From positions 1-60,858 of the IMG/VR virus record IMGVR_UViG_3300021963_000139: a DNA stretch of 60,858 nucleotides. One strand, 5' to 3'. The notes below the pieces were generated by a model. It did not search any database. It saw only the letters and a list, made by a program, of their open reading frames with translations, and was not told where the DNA came from. The number at the start of each line of letters is the position of its first letter. Position 1 is the stretch's first letter. Below are positions 1-60,858 of the stretch, piece after piece. Both the position numbers and the translations under genes were made by a program. Source of the stretch: a virus. Lineage: Duplodnaviria; Caudoviricetes.

Positions 1-185
1 GTAGGTACAGGCTCAGTAGGTACAAGTTCAGTAGGAACGGGTTCAGTAGGAACGGGTTCAGTAGGAACGGGTTCAGTAGGAACGGGTTCAGTAGGAACGG
101 GTTCAGTAGGAACGGGTTCAGTAGGAACGGGTTCAGTAGGAACGGGTTCAGTAGGAACGGGTTCGGTAGGAACGGGTTCGGTAGG
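1..185. repeat. 15-nt tandem repeat (gtaggaacgggttca) encoding PTEPV
   Basis: About 12 near-identical units are directly visible; the array continues at 60748-60858. Confidence 0.95.
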
Positions 186-3100
186 CGTAACAGGAGATGG
201 CGTTTCTTTGACAATATTTATGAGATCTTCTTGCGTAATTGGATTGCCCATATCATCGACAACAATTGTCGGCGTCACGGTTGAGATAGGGGCTGTTGGA
301 GTAATTGTCGGTGCAAACGTAGGTGTTTGAACAGCTGGCGCCTCCCCAGTAACCATTCTGAACAATTCTTGTTGAGTAACAATTTTTCCGTCTTGATCAA
401 CCAAGTCTGTTGGGTCTACGGTTTCTGTAGCTACTCGTAAGTTTCCCTGATCATCTACTAGCCCTGCTATTCTTAATACATCTTCTAATGAATCATCCGC
501 AAATAACAATTCAGTTTGTTGATTTGAACCAAACAAACTTCTTAACTGCTGTACGTCAAAGGGTGAAGGCGTAACCGTTGGGGGCTGACCTCCAACAGGG
601 GGTTCAGGTGGCGGCGTTATATCTACTGTGGGAACTTCGGTCGGAACTGTGGGAACTTCGGTCGGAACTGTAGGAGTTTCTGTAGGAGCAGTCAGTGGTT
701 CAACGGGAGCAACTGTAGGAGTCGTCGTGGGAACAGCAAGTGTAGGAGCTGTCGTGGGGACGGCGGTAGGCGTTGCGCTTCGTGTAATGCTTTGCGTTGA
801 TACGTATAGCGTTTCTCCGGGGGTTAAATCCGAAAACTTTAAACCGCTACTTGTAAATGCCGTTGCGGGCGTAAACGTATATCCTGATCCATCGGTATTT
901 TTGGTCAATACGCCGCGATCATTTGAAACAATGACTTCTCCGCGCTGGGCGGCATCAGAAGCAAACGCAACTGTTTTGGCTGCGTTAACAGCCATTTGAT
1001 TGACGGGGTCATCTTGATTGTCTTGAATGCTTTTTGCAGCATCTGGGTCTTGAAACGTTAATAACTGCAAAACATTGTTGTAAAATTTGTCTGCATTAAT
1101 AACCGTTTCGCCTGCGTCGCCTTCAAACGTAAACGTGCCTTCGTTAGTATCAACGCTTTTTAAATCAAGATTTAGTTTTGGCCCTATGTCTAATACAAAA
1201 GGAACCAAACTTAATGTGGGTTCAGTTCTTGTTGGAACGCCTGTTGCTGTATTGAACTCTAGTTCAACAGGATTGCCGCTTTTATTTGTAATGGTTTGCC
1301 CTGCTAAAGTAAGGGCTTGTTTCCCTAACGATATACCGCCGCCCGTAATTGCAATCTGACCCGTTGTTGTTACAGCAGCATCTCTTGCAATACTGAGCAA
1401 CTCATCCGTTGTGTATTTTTTCCCTGGTTGTAAACCTATATCAGGGATTGTGTCTACATATGCCTGGGCAATTGCCGTTGCTATCTCTGACGGAACATTT
1501 GCCGCCACATTTTTAGCGTAGCCTTCTAAAAATGTTTGTGGTGTAAGTTGCTTTGAAAATAAATCTTTTAAGAACTTTGTGGTGCCAGGAACGCCAATAA
1601 GTTCTCCAGTTCCTTCTAGGCTCGACATGATTGCGGCTCGTGTCGCCGACATGGTTTTTGACGTTTCAGCGTCAAACCCTCTGGCTTCAAACTCTCTAAT
1701 GCCTTTTACATACTCTGATGAAAATAAAGGCAGCGCCGCGCTTGAGAAAGCAACACCTAACGCGACGGGGATGCCTGCTCCTGATAGTGCAGCCAACCCC
1801 ATAGCTGCCGTCGAAGGAATTGATGCGACCGCTGACGCAAAAGCATTTCTAAAATCTTTGTCTCCCTGCTTTGACAATGACTTTTGATACTCAATTAATT
1901 CGTCTACCGTTTCAAATTTTCTCCCTGTTGCAAGTTCCGCTGCGCCTAATACCTGCAATGCAATCTCTGCGCCGCCAATTTGAATGCCTGCCGTTGTTCC
2001 GCTACCCCATCTTTTGGCAACATTCATTAATCCATCAACAGTAGGACTAAAGTCAATGCCTAATCGTTTTTCGCGAATTTGATTAGCTTCATCAATAACT
2101 AATTTTTCTTGTTCTGGGTTTCCTTTTGCCAAGGCAAACTTGGACTCAATATCTTGCATTTCTTCCTCTGAAAAACCAGAGGACATCATCCAAGTACTAA
2201 GATTATTAGGATCATCTTTTGCGTAATAATTGTAATTTGCTTCATCTAACGGACGCGTTAAATATTTTTCTCCTTCTAATTGTGTATAAAGCCCACTTGG
2301 GTAAATATATGTTTGAGCATTTGCCGGAGAGGTTCCTGCTGGAGCAGTAACTGTTATTGATGGCGTCGGCGTTTGTGCAGGCGTTTGTGCAGGCGCCTGT
2401 GTAGGCGTCTGTGTAGGCGTTGCAACTGGAGTTTGATCTACGTAAGAAAAATCGCTTTCGTCTGTGGGAGTACCAATTTCTATTGGTGGCAAGTCCGCTG
2501 GTGGTTTTGCTACTGGCGTAACAGGCGATATTGTTGGAACAGTAGGTAAAGGAGCCGTGGGCGGTGCTATAGGAGTTGTAGGCTCTACCGGTGGCGCTGT
2601 TGGGGTTACAGGAGCCAGAGGTGGCGCTGTAGGCACCGCGGGGGCCGTTGGCGTCACTACAGGCGTAGGCTCTGCTATAGGAGTAACTGTTGGTGTTGTA
2701 GCAGGCGGAGAAACATTAATATCAGGCCAAGTCGTTGGGTCAGACGGGTCAAAACTTGGATCAAGATCTGGATCAGGCCAAGTTGTTGCATCATATGGAT
2801 CAAAAATTGGCTTGTTTGGATCAAATGATTTTGGCGCTATTGGAGTTAATAAATCACCGCCGAGGTCCGCATCAATTGCGCCAACCCCTTCACTATTAAT
2901 AAGTAACTGTCCAACTTGCGATTTAGTAACAAGATAGTTTGCGCCAGCTTGTAAATTTTGCGCCGCGTTTGCAATCGCATTTAAGTTCCCTGATTCAAGA
3001 GCTTTAACTAATTGCAAGGCTGCGCCGGCGGTTTTTAACTCTGCACTATTTGCCGCGCGGCCCGCATCCATTAAAGCCCCTGCGATATCGCCTTTGACAG

Positions 3101-5366
3101 CTTTGTCAACCGCTGATGCCGCATTTAATGCGTCCGATACCGTCAAACCATTGCCAAGGTCTACAGTACCAATGCCTTGACCTAATGAACTACCAGCGAT
3201 TGTTGCCAACGCACCAAGCAAATTGCCTTCTTTGACGGCATTAGCTGCATTGGCCCCCGCCTGTATGGCTGAAGCAGTCGCAGTATCAATTAACCCTGTG
3301 TAACCGCCAAAACCTGCTAAACTTGCGGCGATGGCAAAGGGATTTTCGCTTGCAAGAGCATTGATTGAATTAACGGCTAACGTCAGCGGCGTTAATGCAC
3401 CTCCTGTTAAGAAGTTAGCAATATTGAGAACTGGCCCTGCTTTAGCCACGGCTTTTATGAACGGGTCAGTTGAATCGTCTCCTAAAGTCTGAACCTTAAG
3501 TTTTCCTTCAGCGTCAGCAGTTACGTTCCCGTAGGTCGTTCCTGGACCTTGACCCCATGTTCCAAGCGACCCATCCCAGTCTATTGTTTGGCCTGTCGCT
3601 TTATCAAAAAACTCGGTTTTTGTTGACGCTGGAACGTACTCTTCAAAATCTCCGCCTTCGCCACCAGAAACCGTTCTGTAATATCCTTCAACCGAAACTT
3701 GTCTTGCGCCAAGTTGACTTAAGTCAGTTATCCCTGTTCTTTCTACGATTCTTTGACCAATCTGGTTTAGCATTCCTTGCGTACCAAACCCAGGGCCGCT
3801 ACTTTTGCCCGCCTGTGTTGTCCATGCCCCGCCTGTAGAATTTGGATCTAAAATTGACGCGGCTTGTTTTGCAACTTTTTCTGCTGCAACAAATTGTTTT
3901 TCTATGCCATTTGGTGTAACAACAAACTTTGTGCCATAACCATCATCAAATAACACAGGATTGACTTCTGCCCCTGTGGTTTTATTTATTAGGGCAGTTC
4001 TCGTTTGCGGAGAATTAACAAAATCCTCCAGCCCTTCGCTAATGTTTTCCAACGATAGCTGATCTAGGCTTGTAATTCCTTGTTCTTTCAATTGTTTGTC
4101 TAAAAGCTGCTTTAATAGCTGCGTCTCATCTTTGCCGCTAATTGGGTCAATATACTTGTCTACCCCTGAAAGGAGACTGGATGTTGGCGGCGGCGTAGTC
4201 GGCTTTACTACATCATTGCCGGTTGCTCCTGTGATTGTGTCTGCGCCTACCAGAGGAGACCCAGCAGTCGTCAATAACTCTTGCAGCGTGCGTATCGGCG
4301 TTCCCTGGCCAATAAGAAGCGCATCTACAGATGTCACCTGACCATCTTTATTAACGTCATAAAGCATGTTTGCAGGAATTATTCCTGCCGCCATTTGATG
4401 CGCTATCTCCATGTCCGATAACGTCGGCGCAATAGGTGGCGTCGTCGGCGTTGTGCCTACCAATGTTGGGTCGTAAGGCAGATCGCCCCATTCATTTCGC
4501 GTTTCGTCTACTGTTGGACTTGTTGTAGGCCCTCTCACATCTATATCGACTGGCGACGGACTTCCACCGGTTGAACCTCCACTTACTGTGTCGTTTCCTG
4601 TTCCACCGAAAACAGAGGTTTGCCCTGCCGCTTGCTCCCTAGCTAACCGTTCTGCTGCCTCAATGGCCTCACGTTGAAGTCTTGCTTGTTCGGCAAAATA
4701 CCCAGGGTATGGTTCTCCTGGCAATAGCGTTGTAATCCCCGCAGTAGGTGGTGCAGTAGGTGGTGCAGTAGGTGGTGCAGTAGGTGGTGCAGTAGGTGTT
4801 ACATCCGATTGATTTAAGTAAGTAAAAAATGCATCAACATTTTCTTGTGTTGATATTGGCCTTCCTGCGATACTTTCAATCCTGGCGGCGAGTGCCGCAC
4901 CTTGTTCTGGCGTTAGAAAATCACCAGTTGCTGCGTCTATCTGTGCTTGACGGATTGCAATTAGCTGGGCATTCGTTAATGGACTAGGAGTAGCGACTGT
5001 GGGCGTGTTTGGGACTAGCGAAGCTATACCAACAGAAGGCGGTTCAATTGGTGTGACAGCTATAGGCGAGGCGATTGGCGTTACAAATACAGGAGAAGCG
5101 GTTGGCATCGGGGGTGGAACATAATCTGACTCTACATACGTTGGCGCTGGTGGCGGGTCAGAAGCTGGCGCTGGTGGCGGGTCAGAAGCTGGCGCTGGTG
5201 GCGGGTCAGAAGCTGGCGCTGTATAACTAAAACTCGTCCCTGGATCAGAGTAATATACGTCATACAAGTCAACGCCATACTTAGAAGCAGCCGCAATAAC
5301 ATCATCTAGGCTCGCCCCGCCAGCAAGCATTTCCATGCCTATATTAAGGATTGCTTCTCTATCCAT
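1..5366 (-). CDS. N-terminal part of a giant Pro/Thr-rich virion (putative ejection or surface) protein; continues across the circular junction to 59584 (~2190 aa in total)
   Basis: ATG at 5366 lies just after the stop of 5370..6011. Hand translation starts MDREAILNIGMEMLAGG, and the frame stays open to base 1. It is absent from the ORF track because no stop falls inside the linear window. Contains PTAP, APASDPPP and PTEPV repeats. Confidence 0.85.
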   Translation of the reverse strand, partial: MDREAILNIGMEMLAGGASLDDVIAAASKYGVDLYDVYYSDPGTSFSYTAPASDPPPAPASDPPPAPASDPPPAPTYVESDYVPPPMPTASPVFVTPIASPIAVTPIEPPSVGIASLVPNTPTVATPSPLTNAQLIAIRQAQIDAATGDFLTPEQGAALAARIESIAGRPISTQENVDAFFTYLNQSDVTPTAPPTAPPTAPPTAPPTAGITTLLPGEPYPGYFAEQARLQREAIEAAERLAREQAAGQTSVFGGTGNDTVSGGSTGGSPSPVDIDVRGPTTSPTVDETRNEWGDLPYDPTLVGTTPTTPPIAPTLSDMEIAHQMAAGIIPANMLYDVNKDGQVTSVDALLIGQGTPIRTLQELLTTAGSPLVGADTITGATGNDVVKPTTPPPTSSLLSGVDKYIDPISGKDETQLLKQLLDKQLKEQGITSLDQLSLENISEGLEDFVNSPQTRTALINKTTGAEVNPVLFDDGYGTKFVVTPNGIEKQFVAAEKVAKQAASILDPNSTGGAWTTQAGKSSGPGFGTQGMLNQIGQRIVERTGITDLSQLGARQVSVEGYYRTVSGGEGGDFEEYVPASTKTEFFDKATGQTIDWDGSLGTWGQGPGTTYGNVTADAEGKLKVQTLGDDSTDPFIKAVAKAGPVLNIANFLTGGALTPLTLAVNSINALASENPFAIAASLAGFGGYTGLIDTATASAIQAGANAANAVKEGNLLGALATIAGSSLGQGIGTVDLGNGLTVSDALNAASAVDKAVKGDIAGALMDAGRAANSAELKTAGAALQLVKALESGNLNAIANAAQNLQAGANYLVTKSQVGQLLINSEGVGAIDADLGGDLLTPIAPKSFDPNKPIFDPYDATTWPDPDLDPSFDPSDPTTWPDINVSPPATTPTVTPIAEPTPVVTPTAPAVPTAPPLAPVTPTAPPVEPTTPIAPPTAPLPTVPTISPVTPVAKPPADLPPIEIGTPTDESDFSYVDQTPVATPTQTPTQAPAQTPAQTPTPSITVTAPAGTSPANAQTYIYPSGLYTQLEGEKYLTRPLDEANYNYYAKDDPNNLSTWMMSSGFSEEEMQDIESKFALAKGNPEQEKLVIDEANQIREKRLGIDFSPTVDGLMNVAKRWGSGTTAGIQIGGAEIALQVLGAAELATGRKFETVDELIEYQKSLSKQGDKDFRNAFASAVASIPSTAAMGLAALSGAGIPVALGVAFSSAALPLFSSEYVKGIREFEARGFDAETSKTMSATRAAIMSSLEGTGELIGVPGTTKFLKDLFSKQLTPQTFLEGYAKNVAANVPSEIATAIAQAYVDTIPDIGLQPGKKYTTDELLSIARDAAVTTTGQIAITGGGISLGKQALTLAGQTITNKSGNPVELEFNTATGVPTRTEPTLSLVPFVLDIGPKLNLDLKSVDTNEGTFTFEGDAGETVINADKFYNNVLQLLTFQDPDAAKSIQDNQDDPVNQMAVNAAKTVAFASDAAQRGEVIVSNDRGVLTKNTDGSGYTFTPATAFTSSGLKFSDLTPGETLYVSTQSITRSATPTAVPTTAPTLAVPTTTPTVAPVEPLTAPTETPTVPTEVPTVPTEVPTVDITPPPEPPVGGQPPTVTPSPFDVQQLRSLFGSNQQTELLFADDSLEDVLRIAGLVDDQGNLRVATETVDPTDLVDQDGKIVTQQELFRMVTGEAPAVQTPTFAPTITPTAPISTVTPTIVVDDMGNPITQEDLINIVKETPSPVTPTEPVPTEPVPTEPVPTEPVPTEPVPTEPVPTEPVPTEPVPTEPVPTEPVPTELVPTEPVP
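4741..4797. repeat. 12-nt tandem repeat (gcagtaggtggt) encoding PPTA
   Basis: About 5 units are visible. Confidence 0.9.
5142..5220. repeat. 24-nt tandem repeat encoding APASDPPP
   Basis: Three full units are visible. Confidence 0.9.
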
Positions 5367-23120: not shown

Positions 23121-23132
23121 ATATGTGTTTTA

Positions 23133-23735: not shown

Positions 23736-23737
23736 TT

Positions 23738-23775: not shown

Positions 23776-23783
23776 AGTTTTAG

Positions 23784-23812: not shown

Positions 23813-23837
23813 CTCTGCGCTAAGTGCTTGATTTACA

Positions 23838-24746: not shown

Positions 24747-24756
24747 TTCTTACTCC

Positions 24757-25626
24757 TTAAACGCCAGTTGCGAACTGGTAGCTGTGGTAACCCTGGTTCC
24801 ATTTGACAAGAACTTCTGGGAAACCAACAAAGGTTACCGTCGATCCAGATGCCAAAGTGATAGCCGAGGCCAAGGTAACAGTCGTAGTGTTAACGTTCGT
24901 CACATAGTTGTATGCACCACTGCGAAACGAACCTGCGGTTGCTGCCGGCGCAATAACTTGCATTCCTGCTTGCAAACCCGTAACTGCTGCGGCCAACGTA
25001 AGAGTCGTTGAAGAACCAGACGTTCCACCTGTACCTGTAAGGGTATAAGCGGTTTCCGGAACAACAGCAACAATACGGAAAGGAAGCGCAGTCGTGACAC
25101 GCTTGTTACCCGTTCCATTGGTTGGGTTGTCTGCCGACACAGCCATTGCAGAATTCCCCGTAATCGTGCTACCAGCCGTGCCAGTAACAGCATAAACGTT
25201 TGTTCCAACAAGCCCGGTCGAAGCGTAACCAATCGTGGTAGCTGTGTTAGACACAGAACCAGATTGACCCACCATCGCTACTTTAAAAACTGCCGAAGGA
25301 TCATCCACGACATAAGCAACTGCATCGTTGGCTGCGGTTGAAGCAGGCCAATATTGTGCAAATAACTTTTGTCCTGTGGACGGGTTGGTGTATGAACATC
25401 CAACAAACACCCCAATCTGACCGGCGCGAGCCGTCGAAGTGGTGGAAGTTGTCATGCCCGTAATATTGATTGCACCACCCGCTAGCTCGACTAAGTCACC
25501 ATTGAAGATGCTTGTGCCATAAGCATAAGGGATGGGAATCTGTCGAGTAGCGCCGGCATAAGGAAGGCCATTAAGTTCATTAATTGGCACAAAACCAAAT
25601 GCGGAGCTGACAGTAGGATAAGCCAT
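24757..25626 (-). CDS. Capsid-associated (decoration/minor) protein
   Basis: Immediately upstream of the capsid gene; FGFVP, IFNGDLV and GVFVGCSYT motifs. Confidence 0.6.
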   Translation of the reverse strand: MAYPTVSSAFGFVPINELNGLPYAGATRQIPIPYAYGTSIFNGDLVELAGGAINITGMTTSTTSTARAGQIGVFVGCSYTNPSTGQKLFAQYWPASTAANDAVAYVVDDPSAVFKVAMVGQSGSVSNTATTIGYASTGLVGTNVYAVTGTAGSTITGNSAMAVSADNPTNGTGNKRVTTALPFRIVAVVPETAYTLTGTGGTSGSSTTLTLAAAVTGLQAGMQVIAPAATAGSFRSGAYNYVTNVNTTTVTLASAITLASGSTVTFVGFPEVLVKWNQGYHSYQFATGV

Positions 25627-25640
25627 CTCTAACTCCTAGA

Positions 25641-26090
25641 TTAAGAAGATCCACGCCCAAACGTTACCTTACTCTGCCGGTCATGAAATAACGGCATACG
25701 AACATCGTTCTGGCGCATAAAGTTATTGTCTACAGACTGCATTTGAGCATCCGTTTGTTTTTGGAAAAACTCATTGCGCTGTTCGACCATTTCAACAGGT
25801 GTTTTGCAAAGCAACAGACCACCGATCTCAATGCTGTCCGGGAACCTTGCGGGTGAGCCGGCCATCATATGAACTTCAGGATGCATCGAAGCTTTTACAG
25901 GCTCCCAGCCTTCTCGTAACTTTGAAGAAATATGACGCGGATCAGCTTCGCCCAATGTACTAATACGAATCCATCGAAACTTATATCCTGGCTCCGGCGT
26001 TGGATCAGGCAATAATTGCGGCGGCACCCATTTTTTTGGGCGTTCCGCTGTTTCTCTTGATTCGCGTTGACTTCGTTCTTGCTTTTCCAT
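25641..26090 (-). CDS. Conserved head-module protein
   Basis: WVPP.LLP.P, RWIR, KLREGWEPV and IGGLLLCK; likely start MEKQERS. Confidence 0.65.
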   Translation of the reverse strand: MEKQERSQRESRETAERPKKWVPPQLLPDPTPEPGYKFRWIRISTLGEADPRHISSKLREGWEPVKASMHPEVHMMAGSPARFPDSIEIGGLLLCKTPVEMVEQRNEFFQKQTDAQMQSVDNNFMRQNDVRMPLFHDRQSKVTFGRGSS

Positions 26091-26091
26091 A

Positions 26092-26988
26092 TCAATTCCT
26101 TTGCAATTTCGCGACCTCAAGGGCATACCGTTCTAACGGTATTTTGTACCTATTGGCGTAATCTACCTGCTTTTGCGTAAGCTTGACTTTTTTAGGGGTC
26201 ACGCTTCTTGTTGCAGGCGCCACATTTGACCTTACTGTACGCTGAGATTTCTCAGGTGGCTCCTCGGCGTCAAAGTACTCCGGGAACACTTGCCGCATAC
26301 GAGAATTTAATTTCTCGTAGTATTCGTCAGACGACGCATCTATTCCTTGTTTAATTAACTTGGAATGATAAGCCAGAGCAAACCCTGTCATTTCATCGTC
26401 CGCGCCAAACCATTCGTTAGTCTTTTTCCAAGCTTCGGCTTTTGGATCAACGCGTGGTGGACTAATATGTACTTCTTTTTCCGGCTCTTGTCTAGTGGGA
26501 CGAAAATTATTCACCCGTTCTAGTTTAATTTTTGCCGCTGTTAGTTCTTCATTTGCAACAACTAACCGATCTGAATCACCAGACTCATAAGCTTCTTTAT
26601 ATTTTCGTTTGGCAGCGTCCAACTCTTGAGCAACTGTTTTTTTTGCTTGTTCAAGTAACGCTAACTGCCCGTCTGATAGATGGCCTTTGAGTTTTTTATT
26701 CTCTTCGGCTACTGACTGTGCAATACGAAACGCTTCTTCTTTTGCACGTTCAGCCTCTTCGGCTCGACGTTTCTCAGTTTGATATCCCTTATATAAATGG
26801 TCGATCCGATTCTTTACTCGGTCGCTGTACTCTTTAAGTTCAGCGTCATCAAGCGGCTTAGGCTCTTCACGAAGTTTAGAGTGCTTTGGCTTTTCTTCGT
26901 TTACAACTTCAATTTCAACTTTGTCTTCGCCGCCAACTTCAATTTCAATTTGTTTCTTTTCATCTGGGAACTTAAACTCTTCGCTCAT
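26092..26988 (-). CDS. Putative scaffolding protein
   Basis: Charged coiled coil with DPKAEAW..NEWFG.D.EMT and VKLT..Q C-terminus; head-module position. Confidence 0.65.
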   Translation of the reverse strand: MSEEFKFPDEKKQIEIEVGGEDKVEIEVVNEEKPKHSKLREEPKPLDDAELKEYSDRVKNRIDHLYKGYQTEKRRAEEAERAKEEAFRIAQSVAEENKKLKGHLSDGQLALLEQAKKTVAQELDAAKRKYKEAYESGDSDRLVVANEELTAAKIKLERVNNFRPTRQEPEKEVHISPPRVDPKAEAWKKTNEWFGADDEMTGFALAYHSKLIKQGIDASSDEYYEKLNSRMRQVFPEYFDAEEPPEKSQRTVRSNVAPATRSVTPKKVKLTQKQVDYANRYKIPLERYALEVAKLQRN

Positions 26989-26996
26989 ATTGCCTC

Positions 26997-27398
26997 CTAT
27001 GCTCGAGAAATGCCGCGCGGATCTTGAACCACCGCCTCGACTGAATCATCGTTAATGATTCGAAACTCTTTGCCGTGGATTTTGATCCTTGTCCCCGTGT
27101 TTGGACGAACTAAAACAAAGTCTCCTACTTTGCATGACGGCCCCGACGGAAATCGCGTTTTATCTGCATAAGCATCAGGCCCAACTTTAACAACAAATAA
27201 CACGGGCGAAAGCACCTCTTCGTAGTAAACAGTAGACCCAGCCTTTACAAGGCCGCTGTCATATTCCTCATCCACTTCTGGAAGTACGCACAACAAATGA
27301 TAGGTAGAAGGATCAGGCAACTGCTTGGCCTTTTCCTCTGCCGACTCAGGCAACGTCGTTGCCGTTTCTCCGTCTTGGGAGATTAATAACTCATTCAT
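26997..27398 (-). CDS. groES: GroES-like co-chaperonin
   Basis: P..Y.LL, SGLV, VVKVGPDAY, CKVGDFV and FRIINDDSVEAVV match the Cpn10 pattern. Confidence 0.8.
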   Translation of the reverse strand: MNELLISQDGETATTLPESAEEKAKQLPDPSTYHLLCVLPEVDEEYDSGLVKAGSTVYYEEVLSPVLFVVKVGPDAYADKTRFPSGPSCKVGDFVLVRPNTGTRIKIHGKEFRIINDDSVEAVVQDPRGISRA

Positions 27399-27582
27399 CT
27401 TCTGTTTCCTTTAAACGACTCGCAAGGTCTTGTACTTCTACTTGTGCTGAACGCAGACCCCGAATAACGCCGCACAGCTCTCGATACTCGGCATAATCTT
27501 TTGCCGAGCCGTTGCTCACTGAATCTTTTAGATCCTCAATCCTGTTGTTTACTTTAGTCATTAACAACTCAAATACATCCAT
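27391..27582 (-). CDS. Small conserved coiled-coil protein
   Basis: G.AKDYAEYRELCGVIRGL motif, upstream of groES. Confidence 0.7.
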   Translation of the reverse strand: MDVFELLMTKVNNRIEDLKDSVSNGSAKDYAEYRELCGVIRGLRSAQVEVQDLASRLKETEDE

Positions 27583-28420
27583 TTTCTTTCCTCATGTTTA
27601 CCCATGACTTTACAGCGCGATAAAAATCGTTTTCTAAAAATTGATTGAAGTTAACATCGTCAACCGACTTGATTATTTTTTTATTAAAACGCGAGTCGCA
27701 TGAATAGTGACTTATGTAATGCCATGATTTATATTCATTAAACCCAGGGACGTATACGACATCTTCATGCCGCATGACAACCCGATGGTTAGCACATGCC
27801 ACTTGCAAAGCATACATCCCCGCCCACCATTTAAAATCTTTTGAAGATGTGCTTTGAAATATCTGCTTATGTGCTTGCAGCCACGTAATAAGTATTTTTT
27901 TAAATGTTTTTGCTTTGGCAATAATTGGAACGAAACCGCCATTGTACGCGCCATGATGTTTTGTTAATAGCGGTTCTATTAAATGTTTATGCTCTGACAA
28001 ACTTTTTAAATGCCATGATTCATATACGTTTGATACAACAACTTCGTCTTTGATGTTTAAGTGCGGATGTTTTTTTAGATGACACATATCGCAATCTAAT
28101 AATTCAATTATTTCGTCATCATCAAATTGATCAATAGTCTGTATTAACGCCGATTGAATATTTAACGGCACAATCAATCTGTCGTAAATTTGCTCAATAT
28201 TTAAAAAGTCAAAACAACTTTTCACAATCACATGCGGCAAATTAAGCCGCCACGGTAAAGCCTTATGACTAGTTTCATCAGGGGCGTTTTTATCTACAAC
28301 CAGTGCCACAGCCTTTCGCCATGCGCCAACACCGTATACTTTTTGATGCTGGTGCCAAAACAAATCCAGTTGTAACCCAAAGTTACCGGCACATACTGCA
28401 ATAGGTATGCTTACCATCAA
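27569..28420 (-). CDS. Glycosyltransferase resembling plant SGT1/HPAT (GT96/GT95)
   Basis: DxD motif LLDCDM, plus PLNI, GGFVPII, WWAGMYAL, PGF and SHY in the same order as recalled SGT1/HPAT motifs. Confidence 0.65.
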   Translation of the reverse strand: MMVSIPIAVCAGNFGLQLDLFWHQHQKVYGVGAWRKAVALVVDKNAPDETSHKALPWRLNLPHVIVKSCFDFLNIEQIYDRLIVPLNIQSALIQTIDQFDDDEIIELLDCDMCHLKKHPHLNIKDEVVVSNVYESWHLKSLSEHKHLIEPLLTKHHGAYNGGFVPIIAKAKTFKKILITWLQAHKQIFQSTSSKDFKWWAGMYALQVACANHRVVMRHEDVVYVPGFNEYKSWHYISHYSCDSRFNKKIIKSVDDVNFNQFLENDFYRAVKSWVNMRKENGCI

Positions 28421-29553
28421 AAAGGCCTTTCTCTAAGCCATTTAGTGGCTATCCATTTCACACCTTTTTTTACAGGAACACCTGCGTGCAATGACTCATG
28501 CTCCATCTTGGGATATTTGAATAGCACTGCGTTTCCTTCCACTGCTTCAAATTCAAGATGCATTTCGGGGAATGTCGTCCCGCCTCCAAGTTCTGGGGTA
28601 TTCAAATAAATTAAAAACGTTGCGACTCTTTGTCCTGATTTTTCTAGCGACTGCGTTGTCGGAGGTTTTGATGCATCAAAATAATCGTGATGAGGCTTAT
28701 ACTCTTGCCCCTCTTCGTACCGCAAAATTTGCAATCCTTCTCCGTTTTCTACAGGAATTCCTGTAAGTTGCGCGATTCTTGTTTCAAGTCTTGATATTAA
28801 TTCTGTGCTTCCGCGTTGCAAAAATGCGCCGTAACTTGTTCTGTTTGGATGGTCTGTAGGATGACCTGTTTCGTGATGAACCACAGTAGATTTTTTAAGA
28901 TTTGGTTGCGCCGCACTTATTAATTCTTGACACTCTTGTTTGGTTAAAAAATTACCAAACAATGTTGTCTCAATAGGCTTTTGCTTTTTGAACAATACAG
29001 TACTTGTTTCTTTAATCTCTGGAAGCGACCAGTGAAAAAACATATACACAGCGCGCTGTTTTTCGCCACACAGTAGCTCATCTCTCCAATGAGGAAACTT
29101 TCGGCCTTCCATTACTGCGCCGTACCCAACACCAAAATGCGCTTCTAAAAACTTTTCTTTAAAATGTGCGTTTTGCGCTTTTAAATCCCAGGTGTCGCCA
29201 TGATAAGTTTTGGCGCTTATATTAAGAGGCCAATCTAAATTGTTTTTATCTTCAAGACAAACACTTAAGGTTAAATCTAACCCTTTTCGATCTGTGTGCA
29301 AATTAAGCACGCTATGTCGGTTATAAACTCTTGTGTACGTATTTGCAAATACCGCCGTAGGATATTTTTCCTTTATTAATTTTGTTGCGCGATCTACATA
29401 AGCAATTGACCCTGGTAAATTAAAATATCCGTAACTATTTTTATAGTATTCTGGGCTGTTGTTTTCGTCGTGGTGATCAACTGAAAAAAACTCTTCTACT
29501 AAAGCCTTGCATTCATCGGGACTAAAAATTTTTAAATTGCTTGTCCAAATCAC
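28417..29553 (-). CDS. Tandem 2OG-Fe(II) oxygenase: phage-type N-terminal domain plus a prolyl 4-hydroxylase domain
   Basis: N-domain has HTD..PHWR. C-domain has RTSYGAFL, EGLQILRYEEGQEYKPHHDYF, QRVATFLIYLN, GGGTTFP and HAGVPVKKGVKWIATKW. Confidence 0.85.
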   Translation of the reverse strand: MIWTSNLKIFSPDECKALVEEFFSVDHHDENNSPEYYKNSYGYFNLPGSIAYVDRATKLIKEKYPTAVFANTYTRVYNRHSVLNLHTDRKGLDLTLSVCLEDKNNLDWPLNISAKTYHGDTWDLKAQNAHFKEKFLEAHFGVGYGAVMEGRKFPHWRDELLCGEKQRAVYMFFHWSLPEIKETSTVLFKKQKPIETTLFGNFLTKQECQELISAAQPNLKKSTVVHHETGHPTDHPNRTSYGAFLQRGSTELISRLETRIAQLTGIPVENGEGLQILRYEEGQEYKPHHDYFDASKPPTTQSLEKSGQRVATFLIYLNTPELGGGTTFPEMHLEFEAVEGNAVLFKYPKMEHESLHAGVPVKKGVKWIATKWLRERPF

Positions 29554-31868
29554 GTTTTCACCATTTTTGTCAAAACATCGGCTTTAAGTTTTTTGTCTGT
29601 CTCAAGTGATTTTGCCGCCAGTCGTTGTTGTTCTTTTTGAGCTTCTATTGCAATCCTTTCTTGTTCAACTTTTAATCTTGCTTGGGCTAAAGCAATGTCG
29701 GCTTGGTCTTTCATCGCTTTTCTCTTAACTTCTTCTGCTTTAATCTGTAGTTCAGCTTGTTGCATTTGAACAATTGGATCTTGTGCTTGTTGCATGGCTT
29801 GTTGTTGCTGGGCTTGCGCCATGTTTAGCTGCAAGAGCTGTGCCGCGGCTTGTGCCGTGAGCCTTGATAACTCTACTTCTACGTCTTCAGGAAGTTTTTC
29901 GTTTGGCGGCGGTAGAGGAACCCCTACTTGCTCTTCAATTTTCTTTCGGTAAAGAAAAGACAGGTGTTCTGCGACATGAGCCATGACCGCCGCAGCCATT
30001 TGTTGCGCCATAGGGTTTTGTCCTATGGTTTTTTGGATCATGGGATCTTGCAAAAAAGTCATGTGTGTAGCGATATGTGCATCGTGGTCTTGATAGATAA
30101 ATGCTTTAGTGGGTTCCATCCTTAGAAACGCCATGTTTTCAGAAATAGGGTCTTTGGGATGCTGATCTTCTGGTAAAGGAACTAACCTATCCGCGTTTTT
30201 CACCCCTAAAACTTCAATCATTTGCCGATGCAGTTGAGGCAAATCATAAATTTGCGGGGCTTGGGCCGCTAATTGAATGACCGCTTGGTACTGCATAATC
30301 CTTTGCGCCATCGTTGCAGCGTTAGGGTCACTTACCGGGATGATTTCTACGTGTTCGTAGTCCTCTTGTTTGGCTTTTCTATCTCCTCCCTCGGGGATAT
30401 AGCTGTAGTCTTCAGGGCTACAGTCCTTAATAATTTCTTTTAACAGCTTAAATTCCTGCTTCATTGCCGCATGAACACGAGCTTGAACCGCACTCATGGT
30501 TTTTAGCTGTCTTTCTAATAGCGCCAAAGTCGTTCCTACCGGCGCTTGAGACGACATATCGCTGACTTTCATGTCAGCAATTGATCCTAGTCTTCGTCCT
30601 TCTTCGCTGATCTTTTCTAACAGCATGGCTAATACTTGCGACGGCTCCTTATAAGGAAGCGTCATGATGTTATCTTTAATCGCGCCACTCGGAACGTCTA
30701 CGTCTCTGAATTCTCCTGGCGCTATAGGGGTGTCATCGCCTTTTACCCTAAGACCTCGAGACTTAAGGCCTCCCGGTAAATTCGATAAAGTACCTGCATC
30801 GACCAATTGTCTGATTAACATGGTCCCTGCGCGGGCGTAACCACCTATTAAATGAATATACCCAAACCCATAAGCACCAAAGCCAGGGACATAGTCATAC
30901 TGAACGAGATGTTGTCTTTTCCTATAAAGATAATCACCCTCTCGCCAGTTCCTATAAATGGACAAAATCTTGTTCGTTCCTTTATCAATACTTACAATAT
31001 AAGGAACGGCTACGTCGTCTTCCTTTTCAAACCCAGGTAGATTTAAATCCACCTGTATTTCACAAATTAAATATCTGTCATCGTCGTTAATCGAAAACCC
31101 CGTCTCTTCGGCTTTCTTTTCTTCGACGTCGTTTGATATTTTTATGGGGTCTCCTAAATCAACATCCCTGTAAAACCCTTTAACCTGAAGCCGGTGGATA
31201 TCATTTTTAGTCTTACGCATCATGTGTGTGACGCGTTCCGCGGTTCTCGCCCCCGAGGCTCCGTAGGGAATAATTACGTCCTCCGCAGGAATAAATACCG
31301 CGGTCTCTCTTCCTAAATTAGGATCGTAGTAAACCTTCTTAAAGGCAGCGCCGCTTAGGCCTAAATTAAATAACATCCTCTCATGTTCTGGTCTGTACTC
31401 AGGAATCGTCTCGGTTAAACGATAATTCATATCGTCTCGGACTCTCTCGGCAGCGTCTTCTTTTTCTTTGGTTATTTGACCAATAATTTCTGTTTTAACT
31501 GGACCCTGAGCAGGGAAAGTCTCGATAATCATTTCTGACTGAAACCTTACCGCCGCTTCTGTTAATAAGGTCGAAAATACACCGCAGGCTCCGTTCCACG
31601 GCTCTGTTCTTTCTTCATACTTCATGCCTAAAACTTCTAAGCCTTTGACGTACATATCGACCCAGTCTTTTCTAGAGCCGATATCCGCATCCACTTCGCC
31701 CATTAAATCTGACGCAAGCGTTCCTAACTCCGACTCCGACATATACTCGGCTAAATTTGAATCAAACTCATCGTCTGTTTCTTTATCAGGCTCTAAGACA
31801 ATCTCTAACCCATCTATACCAATTGACACTTCTTCGGGGTCAACAATTTCAATCTCAAGTTCACTCAT
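29550..31868 (-). CDS. Portal protein
   Basis: 772 aa directly after TerL; GAAFKKVYYD, GFGAYGFG and LPYKEPS motifs with a Gln-rich coiled C-terminus. Confidence 0.85.
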   Translation of the reverse strand: MSELEIEIVDPEEVSIGIDGLEIVLEPDKETDDEFDSNLAEYMSESELGTLASDLMGEVDADIGSRKDWVDMYVKGLEVLGMKYEERTEPWNGACGVFSTLLTEAAVRFQSEMIIETFPAQGPVKTEIIGQITKEKEDAAERVRDDMNYRLTETIPEYRPEHERMLFNLGLSGAAFKKVYYDPNLGRETAVFIPAEDVIIPYGASGARTAERVTHMMRKTKNDIHRLQVKGFYRDVDLGDPIKISNDVEEKKAEETGFSINDDDRYLICEIQVDLNLPGFEKEDDVAVPYIVSIDKGTNKILSIYRNWREGDYLYRKRQHLVQYDYVPGFGAYGFGYIHLIGGYARAGTMLIRQLVDAGTLSNLPGGLKSRGLRVKGDDTPIAPGEFRDVDVPSGAIKDNIMTLPYKEPSQVLAMLLEKISEEGRRLGSIADMKVSDMSSQAPVGTTLALLERQLKTMSAVQARVHAAMKQEFKLLKEIIKDCSPEDYSYIPEGGDRKAKQEDYEHVEIIPVSDPNAATMAQRIMQYQAVIQLAAQAPQIYDLPQLHRQMIEVLGVKNADRLVPLPEDQHPKDPISENMAFLRMEPTKAFIYQDHDAHIATHMTFLQDPMIQKTIGQNPMAQQMAAAVMAHVAEHLSFLYRKKIEEQVGVPLPPPNEKLPEDVEVELSRLTAQAAAQLLQLNMAQAQQQQAMQQAQDPIVQMQQAELQIKAEEVKRKAMKDQADIALAQARLKVEQERIAIEAQKEQQRLAAKSLETDKKLKADVLTKMVKT

Positions 31869-31877
31869 CTTAGTTCC

Positions 31878-56037: not shown

Positions 56038-57909
56038 TTACCTCAGTTTAATTGGATTAGCCGCACTTCCTTCTGGCGCGCTTGATGCCGCACCGCCAAG
56101 CAGTTGATTTTCTATCGCCTTAATCTCTTGCTGTAAACGTTTTATCTCCTCTTTGACTTCAGGCTTGCTGGCGTATGCCATGTTTTCCATATATGTCTTT
56201 AAGGTGTTTCGTTTGGAGTCAAGTGCCGCTTTAAGTCTTTGTTGTTCTACCGACTCTGCCCCTCTTGCGCCTTTCAACCTTTCAACGGTAGACATATAAG
56301 CTTCCGCTTTTTTGCCTGTTGGATCTTCCCTAAGCAACCTTTGGTACTCATCAAACAATCGTTCCGTTTCGCCGGGACGGTTAGCGGAGGCTGCTTGGAT
56401 TCTAGCAACCAGTAACTGCGTCTCGCGGCTAAGTTTATTTTCTTCAGCCCGAGCCTTGAGTTCTGCAAACGTCCTTGCATTAGATGCTTCAATTTGTGCA
56501 AGGTTACTCGTTAACTGACCGGCAATCTCTCTATCTTTCTGCTGGTACTTTGCAGCTTCCATATCAGCTTGACGCTTGGCTGCGAAATCACCACGCGACT
56601 GAGCGATCCTTGCGGTCTCAATTTCCTGCATCATCTTGATGCGGTTCATCTCACGTTCACGTTGCAGTAATTGTTGTTTCTCTTCACGGCCTCGAGCGGC
56701 TTCGGCCTCTGTCTCAGCGGCTCTACCAAACCCGCCTAGCAAAGCACCGATCCCACGCTGACCACGAGACGCTTCACCAGCAGCCATAAGTGATTTCCAT
56801 AAAGCAGATCTGGTTCTATCTTTCTCCATCTGTTGGAAACGTTCTTGATCTTCTCGGTCGCGACGTTCAAGCGTAGCCAGATATTGCTCAATCTTTTCGC
56901 CAGGAAGCTTCGTGAGATAAGGATTCTTTTCAGCCGCCTTTTTCCATTCCTCTTCGTAGCTTTGAATGGTGGTCGGTTGTTGTTGAGGAATAGATGTTCT
57001 TAAGGCTTGCATCGCTGGGGTTTCAGCAATAGGCTGAGGCGCAACCGTGGCTATGCCTTGCGGGGATGGAATAGGGGCTGGCGCTTGTACCGACGGACCT
57101 CTAGGCGGCGTTTGTGTAGACGTACCAATTCCTTGCGGCGCTTGCGGAGGAGGGCCGGGAGGAAAACGTTGTTCCATCCTCGGGGTTACAGGTTGTGACA
57201 CGGTTTGCCGCGCAGGCGGTGGTGGCGTAGTTCCTAATTCAGCCTGAGCTAGTTGCTGCTCTAGCATCCGTCTTGTCGCCGTAGCCTTTTCATATTCTTC
57301 TTTGCGTTCTGGAAACTCACGCAATTGTTTTGAACCCATAATTCCGGGTTCTAAGAATGCTTGCTCTAAGGCTTTTGCTTGTATAACTTGTTCACGTATT
57401 TCATCAAGCTTTTTCAAATCATCTTCGGTAAGTTCTTTTCTTTGTCCCGGTGACCCACCCGCAAACGCAATGATGCCACCCGATCCAAATTCAAACTGAT
57501 TATCAGGAACACGAATTGTTGCAACACCACCACCTGCCATCTCTATCGGCATTTCTTCGGGCATTTCAGGAACTTGTGGTTGCGGTACTCCTTGCGGGGC
57601 AGGCCCGGGCATTCTTGCCATTTGCTGACCCTGACTCATGGCCGCTTGTTGTTGGCGCAAGCCTTGGGTCTGTAGCTGATCCATCAATTGTTTTTGCAGC
57701 GCAGAAAGGCCAACTTCTTGTTCAAGTTTTTCTTTGACAGTACCTTGCGGCATCTGAGCAGGTTGCATAGCCTGCTCCATTTTCTTTCGCCTGTTCAGTT
57801 CGCCAAGCGCCAGATAAGGCGGAACCTCGGGGTTCATACCATTGGCATACATCATCACCGCTTGAAGCGGCATGTCCTTAAGACGCTCTTGAATTTGAAC
57901 AAGATTCAT
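56038..57909 (-). CDS. Putative internal virion (ejection) protein
   Basis: Gln/Pro-rich N-terminus with MAGGG and FGSGGIIAF, then coiled coils. Confidence 0.6.
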   Translation of the reverse strand: MNLVQIQERLKDMPLQAVMMYANGMNPEVPPYLALGELNRRKKMEQAMQPAQMPQGTVKEKLEQEVGLSALQKQLMDQLQTQGLRQQQAAMSQGQQMARMPGPAPQGVPQPQVPEMPEEMPIEMAGGGVATIRVPDNQFEFGSGGIIAFAGGSPGQRKELTEDDLKKLDEIREQVIQAKALEQAFLEPGIMGSKQLREFPERKEEYEKATATRRMLEQQLAQAELGTTPPPPARQTVSQPVTPRMEQRFPPGPPPQAPQGIGTSTQTPPRGPSVQAPAPIPSPQGIATVAPQPIAETPAMQALRTSIPQQQPTTIQSYEEEWKKAAEKNPYLTKLPGEKIEQYLATLERRDREDQERFQQMEKDRTRSALWKSLMAAGEASRGQRGIGALLGGFGRAAETEAEAARGREEKQQLLQREREMNRIKMMQEIETARIAQSRGDFAAKRQADMEAAKYQQKDREIAGQLTSNLAQIEASNARTFAELKARAEENKLSRETQLLVARIQAASANRPGETERLFDEYQRLLREDPTGKKAEAYMSTVERLKGARGAESVEQQRLKAALDSKRNTLKTYMENMAYASKPEVKEEIKRLQQEIKAIENQLLGGAASSAPEGSAANPIKLR

Positions 57910-59583: not shown

Positions 59584-60858
59584 TTACTGACCTCTCAAAA
59601 TCTGAATAAGTTCATCAAAAGACACGGTCTCGTCGTCTACCGCCCGTAGGATTTGATCTACGGGATTTTCCTCTCTTTTCTCTGTTCGTTCAATCTGTTC
59701 GGCTAACTGTTCCGGCTCCACGCCTGCTTGCGTCACGCTTAAAGGTTTGTATTCTTCCTGCTCGAGCGTTCCTTCTTTGGTGAGTTTTTGTTTCTTTGAG
59801 CCAAACTCTTTGCCGTAATAAAACACATTTGCTAACTGAGGCATACCAAACGAAGCAGCAATAGCCTGCGCCATCGGCCATGAAATTGGTTCAGATGTCG
59901 GCTTAACAGGCACTGTCGGTTTGGTCGGTGTAATTGGTGTAGCGGTTGGTGACGTAGTAGGAACTACAGGAGGAGCGGTAGGAACTGTAGGTGGCTCAGT
60001 AGGAACCGTTGGGGGTTCGGTAGGAACTGTAGGTGGTTCGGTCGGAACTGTAGGAACCGTTGGCGGTTCGGTCGGAACTGTAGGAACGGCAGTGGGGGTA
60101 ACCGTAGGAGCAACCGTAGGAGCAACCGTAGGCGTGACCGTAGGAGCAACCGTAGGAGCAACCGTAGGCGTGACCGTAGGAGCAACCGTAGGAGCAACCG
60201 TAGGAGCAACCGTAGGCGTGACCGAAGGCGTTTCTGTTGGCGTGACCGTAGGCGTGACCGTAGGAGTGATTGTTGGCGTTTCGGTGGGCGTAACTGTAGT
60301 AGTGGCCGTAGGGGTTTCGGTGGGAGTTTGAGTTGGAGTAACCGTAGGAGTCTCTGTAGGGGTCTCTGTAGGAGTCTCTGTAGGAGTCTCTGTTGGAGTA
60401 ACCGTAGGGGTCTCTGTAGGGGTAACCGTAAGGGTCTCTGTCGGAGTCTCTGTAGGGGTAACCGCGGGAATTTCCGTAGGCGTAGCCGTGGGAGTGGCCG
60501 TAGGCGTTTCTGTAGGAGTCTCAGGTACAAAAACAGTGGGAGTTACAGGAGTCTCTACCTCAACACTTGTCGGAGTTATTGTAGGAGTTATTGGCGCCTC
60601 CGTTGGGACAACCGGAGCCTCGGTAGGAACGGTGGGGGTCTCAGTAGGAACGGTCGGAGCCTCAGTAGGAACGGTCGGAGCCTCGGTAGGAACGGTGGGG
60701 GTTTCGGTAGGAACGGTGGGGGTTTCGGTAGGAACGGTGGGGGTTTCGGTAGGTACAAGTTCAGTAGGTACAGGCTCAGTAGGTACAAGTTCAGTAGGTA
60801 CAGGCTCAGTAGGTACAAGTTCAGTAGGAACGGGTTCAGTAGGAACGGGTTCAGTAGG
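59584..60858 (-). CDS. C-terminal part of the giant Pro/Thr-rich protein (the 109-aa track ORF 59584..59913 is its C-terminus)
   Basis: After merging the 65-nt overlap, the frame of 1..5366 matches that of 59584..59913. I found no in-frame stop in 59913-60858, which reads as [12 protein letters not shown] and PTVA repeats. Confidence 0.8.
59950..60790. repeat. Mixed 12-, 15- and 21-nt coding tandem repeats (APTV, TPTE, PTETPTV)
   Basis: Arrays such as accgtaggagca and gtaggaacggtgggggtttcg are visible. Confidence 0.9.
60794..60858. repeat. 65-nt terminal direct repeat identical to bases 1-65 (circular assembly overlap)
   Basis: Exact sequence identity by direct comparison; the match lies inside a tandem repeat. 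Confidence 0.9.

What the first reader, a model, noticed from the sequence alone, without database searches (positions are those of the whole stretch)
27569..29553. Candidate phage-encoded hydroxyproline O-glycosylation system (P4H plus SGT1/HPAT-like glycosyltransferase plus extensin-like virion protein)
Seen: a prolyl-4-hydroxylase-type gene and a DxD glycosyltransferase gene sit directly behind the portal gene, with 4-nt overlaps (29550-53, 28417-20). They are visibly more AT-rich than the head genes that follow. The same late operon encodes a ~2190-aa protein with long PTEPV, PTAP, PTVA and APASDPPP arrays. Known: in plants and green algae, P4H followed by HPAT (GT95) and SGT1 (GT96) glycosylates Pro-rich extensins, and the chlorovirus PBCV-1 encodes a P4H. 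Inference: this phage hydroxylates and O-glycosylates its own Pro/Thr-rich virion proteins, for shielding, stiffening, adhesion or defence evasion. No sugar-synthesis genes are present, so the donors would be host nucleotide sugars. I know of no such pathway described in a bacteriophage.
Basis: partly seen in the sequence, partly recalled or inferred. Interest (0 to 1): 0.9.

Follow-up and report, generated by a model that had tools for sequence, protein, structure and literature searches.

The report
Phage proline-hydroxylase and sugar-transferase cassette
A 61-kb uncultured phage carries, right behind its portal gene, a true proline hydroxylase and a soluble relative of the plant enzyme that puts sugar on hydroxyproline, so it probably hydroxylates and sugar-coats proteins, but which protein it modifies is still open.

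Summary
Behind the portal gene lie a 378-aa tandem 2OG oxygenase and a 283-aa DxD glycosyltransferase. They form the lowest-GC stretch of the genome. A 2191-aa Pro/Thr-rich protein is also encoded.

The enzyme calls are well supported. The C-terminal oxygenase domain matches solved prolyl 4-hydroxylases (Chlamydomonas, E 5e-38) and keeps the Fe and 2OG ligands. The GT passes Pfam HPAT, and its family profile finds canonical HPAT proteins in return (hhalign 98.6%).

A functional link between hydroxylase and GT is supported. In 38 of 64 GT loci a protein hydroxylase is fused, adjacent or nearby. Sister phages have a JmjC hydroxylase in place of the P4H at the same site. In several unrelated phages a Pro-rich repeat protein sits beside such a module.

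The proposed substrate is not supported by co-occurrence. Homologues of the giant protein with long Pro/Thr arrays occur in 3 near-complete relatives that lack GT, P4H and JmjC.

My verdict: this is a probable late protein hydroxylation and O-glycosylation module whose substrate is unproven. I found no published phage example. This scan has noted similar cassettes before on other DNA.

The parts
29550..31868 (-). Portal gene. It is the upstream neighbour, and its stop overlaps the oxygenase start (GTGA).
   Evidence: phrog_1216 portal, E 6.6e-20; junction read.
28999..29553 (-). N-terminal domain (residues 1-185) of the 378-aa protein. It is a second 2OG-Fe(II) oxygenase of unknown substrate.
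   Evidence: phrog_2954, E 3.8e-14 (labelled 'ferrochelatase'). H86-x-D88, H155 and R157 are invariant in 17 of 17 sequences, including stand-alone homologues. AF2 pLDDT is 91.5. Foldseek finds only generic double-stranded beta-helix oxygenases: HygX E 2e-6, DdPhyA, PBCV-1 vCPH, KanJ.
28420..28965 (-). C-terminal domain (residues 197-378): collagen/plant-type prolyl 4-hydroxylase.
   Evidence: PF13640, E 3.3e-16. PDB phmmer: 2jig Chlamydomonas P4H 5e-38, 3itq B. anthracis P4H 1e-33, 7zsc human C-P4H alpha-2 3.5e-24, 5c5t 1.2e-16. H288, D290, H356 and K366 are invariant in 11 of 11.
27569..28420 (-). Soluble HPAT-family GT-A glycosyltransferase, 283 aa from TTG; more likely 282 aa from ATG at 28417.
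   Evidence: PF23452 HPAT, 32.8 bits against a cut-off of 23.9. 48 of 72 homologues hit HPAT and no other family. E106 and D109-x-D111 are invariant. AF2 pLDDT is 96. hhalign to HPAT-type proteins gives 98.6%.
27391..27582 (-). 63-aa gene that overlaps the GT stop by 14 nt. It is conserved downstream of the cassette in relatives; function unknown.
1..5366 (-). N-terminal 1788 aa of the 2191-aa Pro/Thr-rich protein. It is a candidate substrate only.
   Evidence: No Pfam or PHROG family.
59584..60858 (-). C-terminal part of the same protein: PTEPV/TPTV arrays plus a conserved C-terminal domain of about 100 aa.
   Evidence: The C-terminal domain has homologues in 48 viral loci.
56038..57909 (-). 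623-aa late protein with a Pro-rich patch (13 Pro in 40 aa). It is a second, weaker candidate substrate.
   Evidence: It and the giant protein are the only 2 of 67 genes that reach 12 Pro in 40 aa.

Best explanation
The two genes form an accessory protein-modification module acquired by horizontal transfer. They are translated together with the head genes late in infection.

Proposed mechanism (inferred). The C-terminal domain of the 378-aa enzyme uses Fe(II), 2-oxoglutarate and O2 in the host cytoplasm to turn peptidyl proline into 4-hydroxyproline. The soluble HPAT-family GT-A enzyme then moves a sugar from a host nucleotide sugar onto that hydroxyl. The N-terminal oxygenase domain makes a second, unknown oxidation.

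Likely substrates (inferred). The phage's own Pro-rich late proteins are the most likely targets. The 2191-aa Pro/Thr protein is the first candidate and the 623-aa protein the second.

Shown: gene structure, family membership, intact catalytic motifs, and a genomic link between hydroxylase and GT. Inferred: the activities, their order, the donor sugar and the substrate.
For: P4H identity.

HPAT-family identity:
- Pfam score above the cut-off.
- 48 of 72 homologues hit HPAT only.
- The family profile, run against 1.84 billion proteins, gave 95 hits. Of the 10 distant ones I scanned, 8 are strong Pfam HPAT proteins (down to E 4e-164).
- hhalign 98.6%, E 1e-15 over 250 columns, with DxD aligned to DPD.

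Coupling of hydroxylase and GT:
- Start and stop codons overlap.
- All 18 distinct window-like contigs that cover the space between portal and GT encode a hydroxylase there. Thirteen have the tandem P4H and 5 have a JmjC/Cupin_8 enzyme (E 3e-40).
- Single proteins fuse the GT to Cupin_8 in 4 MAG loci and to PF13640 in 2 viral loci.
- Of 16 longer relatives, 3 carry PF13640 and 1 carries PF13621.
- Overall, 38 of 64 loci have a hydroxylase, spread across the GT tree.

Pro-rich neighbours in unrelated contexts:
- L064/65: a (PTPS)n protein directly upstream of the P4H and a GT fusion.
- L056: an (AP)n protein two genes away.
- L040/41: a PVVP-repeat protein upstream of the GT-2OG fusion.
- L011: a (PT)40 protein.
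- L014: a (PPSPSPK)n protein.
- L008: a (GRKPPAP)n protein.
- Collagen-like GPT fibres lie 2-4 kb from the GT in L059-61 and L068.

Accessory nature: lowest GC in the genome. No GT match in 50,697 phage records. After the portal genes of 023Pt_psg01 and HTVC027P only small hypothetical genes are annotated.
Against: Co-occurrence fails in this lineage. G012 (93% complete), G013 (100%) and G016 (95%) hold homologues of the giant protein with Pro/Thr arrays of at least 289, 208 and at least 132 residues. They have no GT, PF13640 or Cupin_8. All 15 records tested that carry such a homologue lack the GT.

Short Pro-rich patches are common in this phage family without the cassette. They occur in 19 of 80 loci, including complete genomes without GT or PF13640.

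No cassette-positive relative could be read as far as the giant gene, so the window is the only case showing both.

In 26 of 64 GT loci no hydroxylase was found within the fetched flanks. Some of those sit among GH130, GT2 and methyltransferase genes.

The JmjC swap argues that the acceptor need not be hydroxyproline. Its nearest solved relatives are JMJD5, FIH and JMJD7.

GT95 is related to the Ser-galactosyltransferase family GT96 (PMC8012813, passage seen). Direct Ser/Thr glycosylation is therefore not excluded.

The reference list of PMC7019647 carries an unpublished note that no hydroxyproline was detected in PBCV-1 virions.
Confidence: 0.55

Rival explanations
1. The module hydroxylates and glycosylates a protein, but not the giant Pro/Thr protein. 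The target could be a head-module or other virion protein, or a host protein changed during takeover.
For: The cassette sits in the head module between portal and scaffold in every window-like contig, 22 kb from the giant gene. Giant-protein homologues with long Pro/Thr arrays exist without the cassette. Sister phages use a JmjC enzyme whose nearest solved relatives are JMJD5, named arginyl-hydroxylase in its PDB entry, and FIH and JMJD7, which I recall as Asn and Lys hydroxylases. That does not point to Pro arrays.
Against: No head-module protein has a conspicuous Pro-rich array; only 2 of 67 genes reach 12 Pro in 40 aa. The P4H domain is of the collagen/plant type, which is known to act on Pro-rich repeats. 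In unrelated phages Pro-rich repeat proteins lie next to such modules.
Confidence: 0.2
2. The GT glycosylates Ser or Thr directly, in mucin or SGT1 style. The oxygenases act independently, for example to stiffen polyproline helices.
For: The arrays hold more Thr (331) than Pro (286). GT95 is related to GT96 Ser-galactosyltransferase (PMC8012813). In 26 of 64 GT loci no hydroxylase was found. GPT collagen-like fibres lie near GTs that have no hydroxylase.
Against: The GT is fused to hydroxylases in three architectures and tightly adjacent across the GT tree. Pfam and the reciprocal search point to HPAT itself.
Confidence: 0.12
3. The pair acts on a non-protein target: DNA bases (as TET/JBP plus GT does), a glycan or a small molecule.
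For: The genome encodes a DpdA homologue, so its DNA is probably modified. The N-terminal domain's best fold matches include the sugar-modifying oxygenases HygX and KanJ. Some GT relatives sit in glycan-type clusters.
Against: The C-terminal domain matches peptidyl-prolyl hydroxylases at E 5e-38. The window protein has no Tet_JBP hit at E 0.01 or better. The swap partner belongs to the protein-hydroxylase JmjC group. The GT's only family is HPAT.
Confidence: 0.08

Closest known systems
Plant and green-algal hydroxyproline-rich glycoprotein pathway: P4H, then HPAT1-3 (CAZy GT95)
   Same: There is a collagen/plant-type P4H; the best solved match is Chlamydomonas P4H. There is an HPAT-family GT with a DxD motif. 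Pro-rich repeat proteins are encoded by the same genome.
   Different: The phage GT has about 280 aa and no membrane anchor, so it would be cytoplasmic. Plant HPATs are type II Golgi membrane proteins (PMC8012813, passage seen). It covers positions 55-250 of the 307-position profile. The donor is unlikely to be UDP-L-arabinofuranose (my inference). No elongating GT77 or GT47 enzymes are present. The oxygenase is a tandem of two domains.
Chlorovirus PBCV-1 prolyl 4-hydroxylase (PDB 5c5t)
   Same: It is a virus-encoded P4H in a genome that also encodes Pro-rich repeats. That it acts on such repeat peptides is recalled from Eriksson 1999, of which I saw only the citation. The sequence match is E 1.2e-16.
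   Different: PBCV-1 infects a eukaryote, and no paired HPAT-type GT is described for it. An unpublished note in the reference list of PMC7019647 says no Hyp was detected in its virions.
Skp1 prolyl-hydroxylation and glycosylation pathway of Dictyostelium and Toxoplasma (PhyA, then Gnt1); recalled
   Same: It is a cytoplasmic P4H followed by a soluble GT acting on Hyp. Relatives of the window's GT are fused to PF11397 'Glycosyltransferase (GlcNAc)' domains. I recall PF11397 as the Gnt1 family.
   Different: The window has no PF11397 domain. The Skp1 target is a single Pro in one protein, not repeat arrays.
Mycobacteriophage virion O-glycosylation (Freeman et al. 2023; citation seen in PMC11256854)
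   Same: Phage-encoded GTs decorate the phage's own structural proteins in the host cytoplasm.
   Different: No hydroxylase is involved there, and I recall the GT families as different. No hydroxyproline is involved.
Mimivirus L230 bifunctional lysyl hydroxylase/glycosyltransferase acting on viral collagen; recalled, not tested here
   Same: A viral hydroxylase is fused to a GT that acts on the hydroxylated residue of a repeat protein. The GT-Cupin_8 and GT-2OG fusions found here are analogous.
   Different: That case involves Lys rather than Pro, different enzyme families, and a giant virus of eukaryotes.

Membership tests
Collagen/plant-type prolyl 4-hydroxylase (2OG-Fe(II) oxygenase, PF13640) | Significant similarity to biochemically characterised peptidyl-prolyl 4-hydroxylases | tested here: met
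   Residues 197-377 match 2jig at 5e-38, 3itq at 1e-33, 7zsc at 3.5e-24 and 5c5t at 1.2e-16. PF13640 scores 60.5 bits against a cut-off of 27.
Collagen/plant-type prolyl 4-hydroxylase (2OG-Fe(II) oxygenase, PF13640) | His-x-Asp...His iron triad and the 2OG-binding Lys after the distal His | tested here: met
   H288, D290, H356 and K366 are invariant in 11 of 11 sequences. They align with 'PHYDYF', 'SLHGS' and 'KGDKW' of the Chlamydomonas enzyme.
Collagen/plant-type prolyl 4-hydroxylase (2OG-Fe(II) oxygenase, PF13640) | Hydroxylation of peptidyl proline | not testable with these tools
   This needs an enzyme assay.
HPAT / CAZy GT95 | Match to the family profile above the curated cut-off, confirmed in the reverse direction | tested here: met
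   PF23452 scores 32.8 bits against 23.9, E 6.4e-8. 48 of 72 homologues hit it. In the profile search, 8 of the 10 distant hits scanned are Pfam HPAT. hhalign gives 98.6%.
HPAT / CAZy GT95 | GT-A fold with a DxD motif | tested here: met
   AF2 pLDDT is 96. D109-x-D111 follows strand 104-108. Foldseek finds GT-A enzymes (GT6) at E 4e-7, TM about 0.5.
HPAT / CAZy GT95 | Type II membrane anchor and Golgi location | tested here: not met
   The protein starts directly with conserved beta-strand 2-9 and has no N-terminal helix. Plant enzymes are membrane-anchored (PMC8012813).
HPAT / CAZy GT95 | Hyp acceptor and UDP-L-arabinofuranose donor | not testable with these tools
   There is context evidence only: fusion and adjacency to hydroxylases.
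Skp1-type pathway (PhyA plus Gnt1, PF11397) | A PF11397 GlcNAc-transferase domain | tested here: not met
   There is no PF11397 hit in the window's cassette. It is present only in relatives L011, L012 and L064.
TET/JBP oxygenase plus GT DNA hypermodification | An oxygenase of the Tet_JBP family | tested here: not met
   The window's 378-aa protein has no PF12851 hit at E 0.01 or better.

The most novel reading that the evidence does not exclude
Bacteriophages run a cytoplasmic hydroxyproline O-glycosylation pathway like that of plants. A two-oxygenase cascade and a soluble HPAT-type transferase turn Pro/Thr arrays of very large late proteins into stiff, sugar-coated rods. The small phage and bacterial GT family would be a prokaryotic sister, or even the source, of plant GT95. 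This would also explain why P4H genes are so common in aquatic viruses.
Probability: 0.3. Interest if true: 0.85.

Novelty: new variant of a known kind. Interest (0 to 1): 0.7.

Why it matters
Prolyl 4-hydroxylase genes are among the most abundant viral auxiliary genes in water. [quoted passage not shown]

A hydroxylase wired to an HPAT-family transferase gives that question a concrete, testable answer.

If it is right, hydroxyproline O-glycosylation is not confined to eukaryotes, and plant GT95 has relatives in phages and bacteria.

It would also add a second, chemically different route to glycosylated phage particles beside the mycobacteriophage case. That bears on phage stability, adhesion and immune recognition.

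I found no paper describing this in a bacteriophage. Supplementary files and non-open journals were not searched.

Tried and rejected
- GT against solved structures by sequence: no credible hit; the best was E 0.003 to a complement receptor.
- N-terminal domain profile against PDB sequences: nothing.
- NCBIfam: no family for either enzyme, nor for the 4 other proteins scanned (the DpdA-like ORF 37281-38036, ORFs 34136-34966 and 24757-25626, and the L050 JmjC protein).
- DNA search of 27000-32000 against phage records: no match.
- Giant protein: no tblastn hit in phage records. Its middle part found no relative in viral contigs. Only the C-terminal domain did.
- The metagenome-contig scan with the GT gave one 2-kb contig, useless for linkage.
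- Linking cassette and giant gene in one relative failed. G001 starts inside the capsid gene, and no cassette-positive contig reaches the giant gene.
- Contigs from the same samples might belong to one phage: L001 with L071, and L005 with L074 and L157. This cannot be shown, so I did not count it.
- The promoter and terminator scan of 20000-34500 found no more sites than shuffled sequence.
- A DNA-modification reading was considered because of DpdA. I rated it low because the oxygenase families are protein hydroxylases.
- I did not run a complex prediction, because the report does not claim that the two enzymes bind each other.
- Earlier notes of this scan on other genomes repeat the idea but are not independent evidence.
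Full report
WHAT IS THERE

The window is a whole virus record of 60,858 bp. Its two ends repeat 65 nt.

On the minus strand the order is: terminase large subunit (31878-33359), portal (29550-31868), a 378-aa ORF (28417-29553), a 283-aa ORF (27569-28420), a 63-aa ORF, a GroES-like gene, scaffold-like genes and the major capsid gene (23838-24746).

The portal stop and the 378-aa start share GTGA. The next junction reads TTGATG. The ATG at 28417 is the more likely GT start, because homologues begin 'MISxPIAV' and the Atlas holds the protein from residue 2. The GT overlaps the 63-aa gene by 14 nt.

The two genes have 38.2% GC against 47.1% for the genome. None of 589 windows of the same length is as low. 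No excess of promoter-like or terminator-like sites sets the cassette apart.

By terminase, the nearest cultured phages are 023Pt_psg01 (56%), DSL-LC04, and Pelagibacter phages HTVC027P and HTVC023P (52-53%). After the portal genes of 023Pt_psg01 and HTVC027P only small hypothetical genes are annotated. The GT has no tblastn match in 50,697 phage records. The oxygenase finds 69 phage records, all through its C-terminal half only, and none covers 80% of it.

The cassette is therefore an accessory insertion.

THE OXYGENASE

Residues 197-377 match solved prolyl 4-hydroxylases:
- Chlamydomonas P4H 2jig, E 5e-38
- Bacillus anthracis P4H 3itq, E 1e-33
- human collagen P4H alpha-2 7zsc, E 3.5e-24
- chlorovirus 5c5t, E 1.2e-16

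H288-x-D290, H356 and K366 are invariant in 11 of 11 two-domain homologues.

Residues 1-185 form a second oxygenase domain:
- It hits phrog_2954.
- It folds with pLDDT 91.5 into a double-stranded beta-helix.
- It keeps H86-x-D88, H155 and R157 in 17 of 17 sequences, including stand-alone versions.
- Its fold matches are generic: HygX, DdPhyA, PBCV-1 vCPH, KanJ, PHD2 and OGFOD1, with TM about 0.6.

The two domain types travel together in three arrangements. They are fused in this order in the window-like phages. They are fused in the reverse order in L035 and L064. They are separate neighbouring genes in L046 and L056.

THE GLYCOSYLTRANSFERASE

- Pfam gives one family, HPAT (PF23452): 32.8 bits against a cut-off of 23.9, covering profile positions 55-250 of 307.
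- Of 72 homologues, 48 hit HPAT and none hits another family.
- The AF2 model (pLDDT 96) is a GT-A fold. The invariant D109-x-D111 follows strand 104-108.
- The nearest solved structures are GT6 enzymes at TM about 0.5. The fold therefore says GT-A and no more.
- The reverse test worked. A profile of the 72 sequences, run against 1.84 billion representatives, found only 95 proteins. Of the 10 distant hits I scanned, 8 are strong Pfam HPAT proteins (E 9e-17 to 4e-164).
- Profile against profile gives 98.6% probability over 250 columns, with DCD aligned to DPD.
- Unlike plant HPATs, which are type II Golgi membrane proteins (PMC8012813, passage seen), this protein starts directly with its first strand and has no anchor.

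ARE THE TWO LINKED?

I collected 53 viral and 12 MAG loci with the GT. I searched them with profiles grown from the window's own proteins.

The count covers 64 loci including the window. Three duplicate loci and two truncated GTs were dropped. Of the 64, 38 have a protein hydroxylase fused, adjacent or within the fetched flanks, and 26 have none. Many loci are near-copies. After removing rows more than 97% alike, 48 remain, and the association is spread over the whole GT tree.

The strongest points:
- All 18 distinct window-like contigs that cover the space between portal and GT have a hydroxylase there. Thirteen have the tandem P4H. Five have a 333-aa Cupin_8/JmjC enzyme instead (E 3e-40). 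Its nearest solved relatives are JMJD5, FIH and JMJD7.
- Single proteins fuse the GT to Cupin_8 (four gammaproteobacterial MAG loci) or to PF13640 (two viral loci).
- Of 16 longer relatives in the 5.8-billion-protein collection, 3 carry PF13640, 1 carries PF13621 and 7 carry PF11397.

This is good evidence that the GT works with protein hydroxylases. It also shows that the hydroxylated residue need not always be proline.

In the 26 loci without a hydroxylase, I scanned 147 neighbour proteins from 19 of them. The commonest families were collagen repeats (5), GT2 (4), GT25 (4), GH130 (4) and PhyH (3).

THE SUBSTRATE QUESTION

The giant protein is real. It has 2191 aa, with 783 residues in Pro/Thr-rich segments. 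It has no family hit.

It lies among likely ejected or polyvalent proteins: an LPD38-bearing 2003-aa protein and a weak 'DNA ejection protein' hit. That it is part of the virion is inferred only.

Pro-rich repeat proteins lie beside hydroxylase-GT modules in several unrelated phages and MAGs: L064/65, L056, L040/41, L011, L014 and L008. GPT collagen-like fibres lie near the GT in L059-61 and L068.

In this lineage the test is negative:
- The C-terminal domain of the giant protein has homologues in 48 viral loci, most with long Pro/Thr arrays.
- All 15 records tested lack the GT. A positive control record did match.
- Three near-complete genomes (93%, 100% and 95%) with arrays of at least 289, 208 and at least 132 residues also lack PF13640 and Cupin_8.
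- Nine of 10 close relatives with enough downstream sequence have no giant gene at that site.
- Short Pro-rich patches are common in cassette-free relatives.
- No cassette-positive relative could be read as far as the giant gene.

So the arrays do not need the cassette. Whether the cassette needs the arrays is unknown.

VERDICT

The giant Pro/Thr protein is a sensible first candidate substrate, but comparison does not support it.

I found no report of such a pathway in bacteriophages. A survey of Baltic viruses calls the role of viral P4H cryptic (PMC9301287, passage seen).

Earlier notes of this scan describe similar cassettes in other genomes. They agree with this reading but are not independent evidence.

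Supplementary files of papers were not seen.

Noticed in passing
window 37281-38036 (+): A 251-aa protein matches DpdA (PF23859, E 1.9e-35). I recall DpdA as the transglycosylase that puts 7-deazaguanine bases into DNA, so the phage DNA is probably modified. No preQ0 synthesis genes were seen among the ORFs scanned.
   Followed up: partly
L050:5331-6332, also L051, L052, L054, L055, L067: Sister phages with the same gene order have a Cupin_8/JmjC hydroxylase between portal and GT in place of the tandem P4H. Its nearest solved relative is JMJD5, E 4e-23.
   Followed up: yes
L008:4936-14107, also L006, L009, L010 (Pyrinomonadaceae MAGs): These bacterial loci hold the GT beside a (GRKPPAP)n protein, a 1600-aa protein with 10% Pro, GT25, GT92/GT2_4 and a PhyH-type oxygenase. 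This may be a chromosomal version of the system.
   Followed up: partly
L059-L061 and L068: Collagen-like tail-fibre proteins with GPT triplets lie 2-4 kb from a GT of this family, with no hydroxylase in the fetched flanks.
   Followed up: partly
window 1-65 and 60794-60858: The 65-nt terminal redundancy lies inside the 45-nt-period PTEPV repeat. The repeat copy number and the exact circular junction are therefore uncertain.
   Followed up: partly
window 50023-56034 (-): This 2003-aa protein has an LPD38 'large polyvalent protein' domain (E 1.3e-34) and an HExxH-like 'HEIVH' motif. It is probably an ejected multi-domain protein.
   Followed up: no
window 15885-16457 (-) and 23133-23735 (-): An HNH endonuclease (phrog_3377, E 4e-50) and an endonuclease VII-like gene are inserted in the structural gene block.
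   Followed up: no
window 10918-12642 (-): This 574-aa protein consists largely of Gly runs, with two repeated halves (phrog_2295, E 5e-77).
   Followed up: no
window 21354-21737 (+): An opposite-strand ORF inside the late gene block is conserved in a relative (L152, E 4e-17). The late genes are therefore not one uninterrupted operon.
   Followed up: no
L105:4815-6584, L107:3401-4581, L139:1-1091: More distant relatives carry P4H-type and N-type oxygenase genes in the tail module, upstream of the 715-aa structural gene. No GT lies in the fetched flanks.
   Followed up: no
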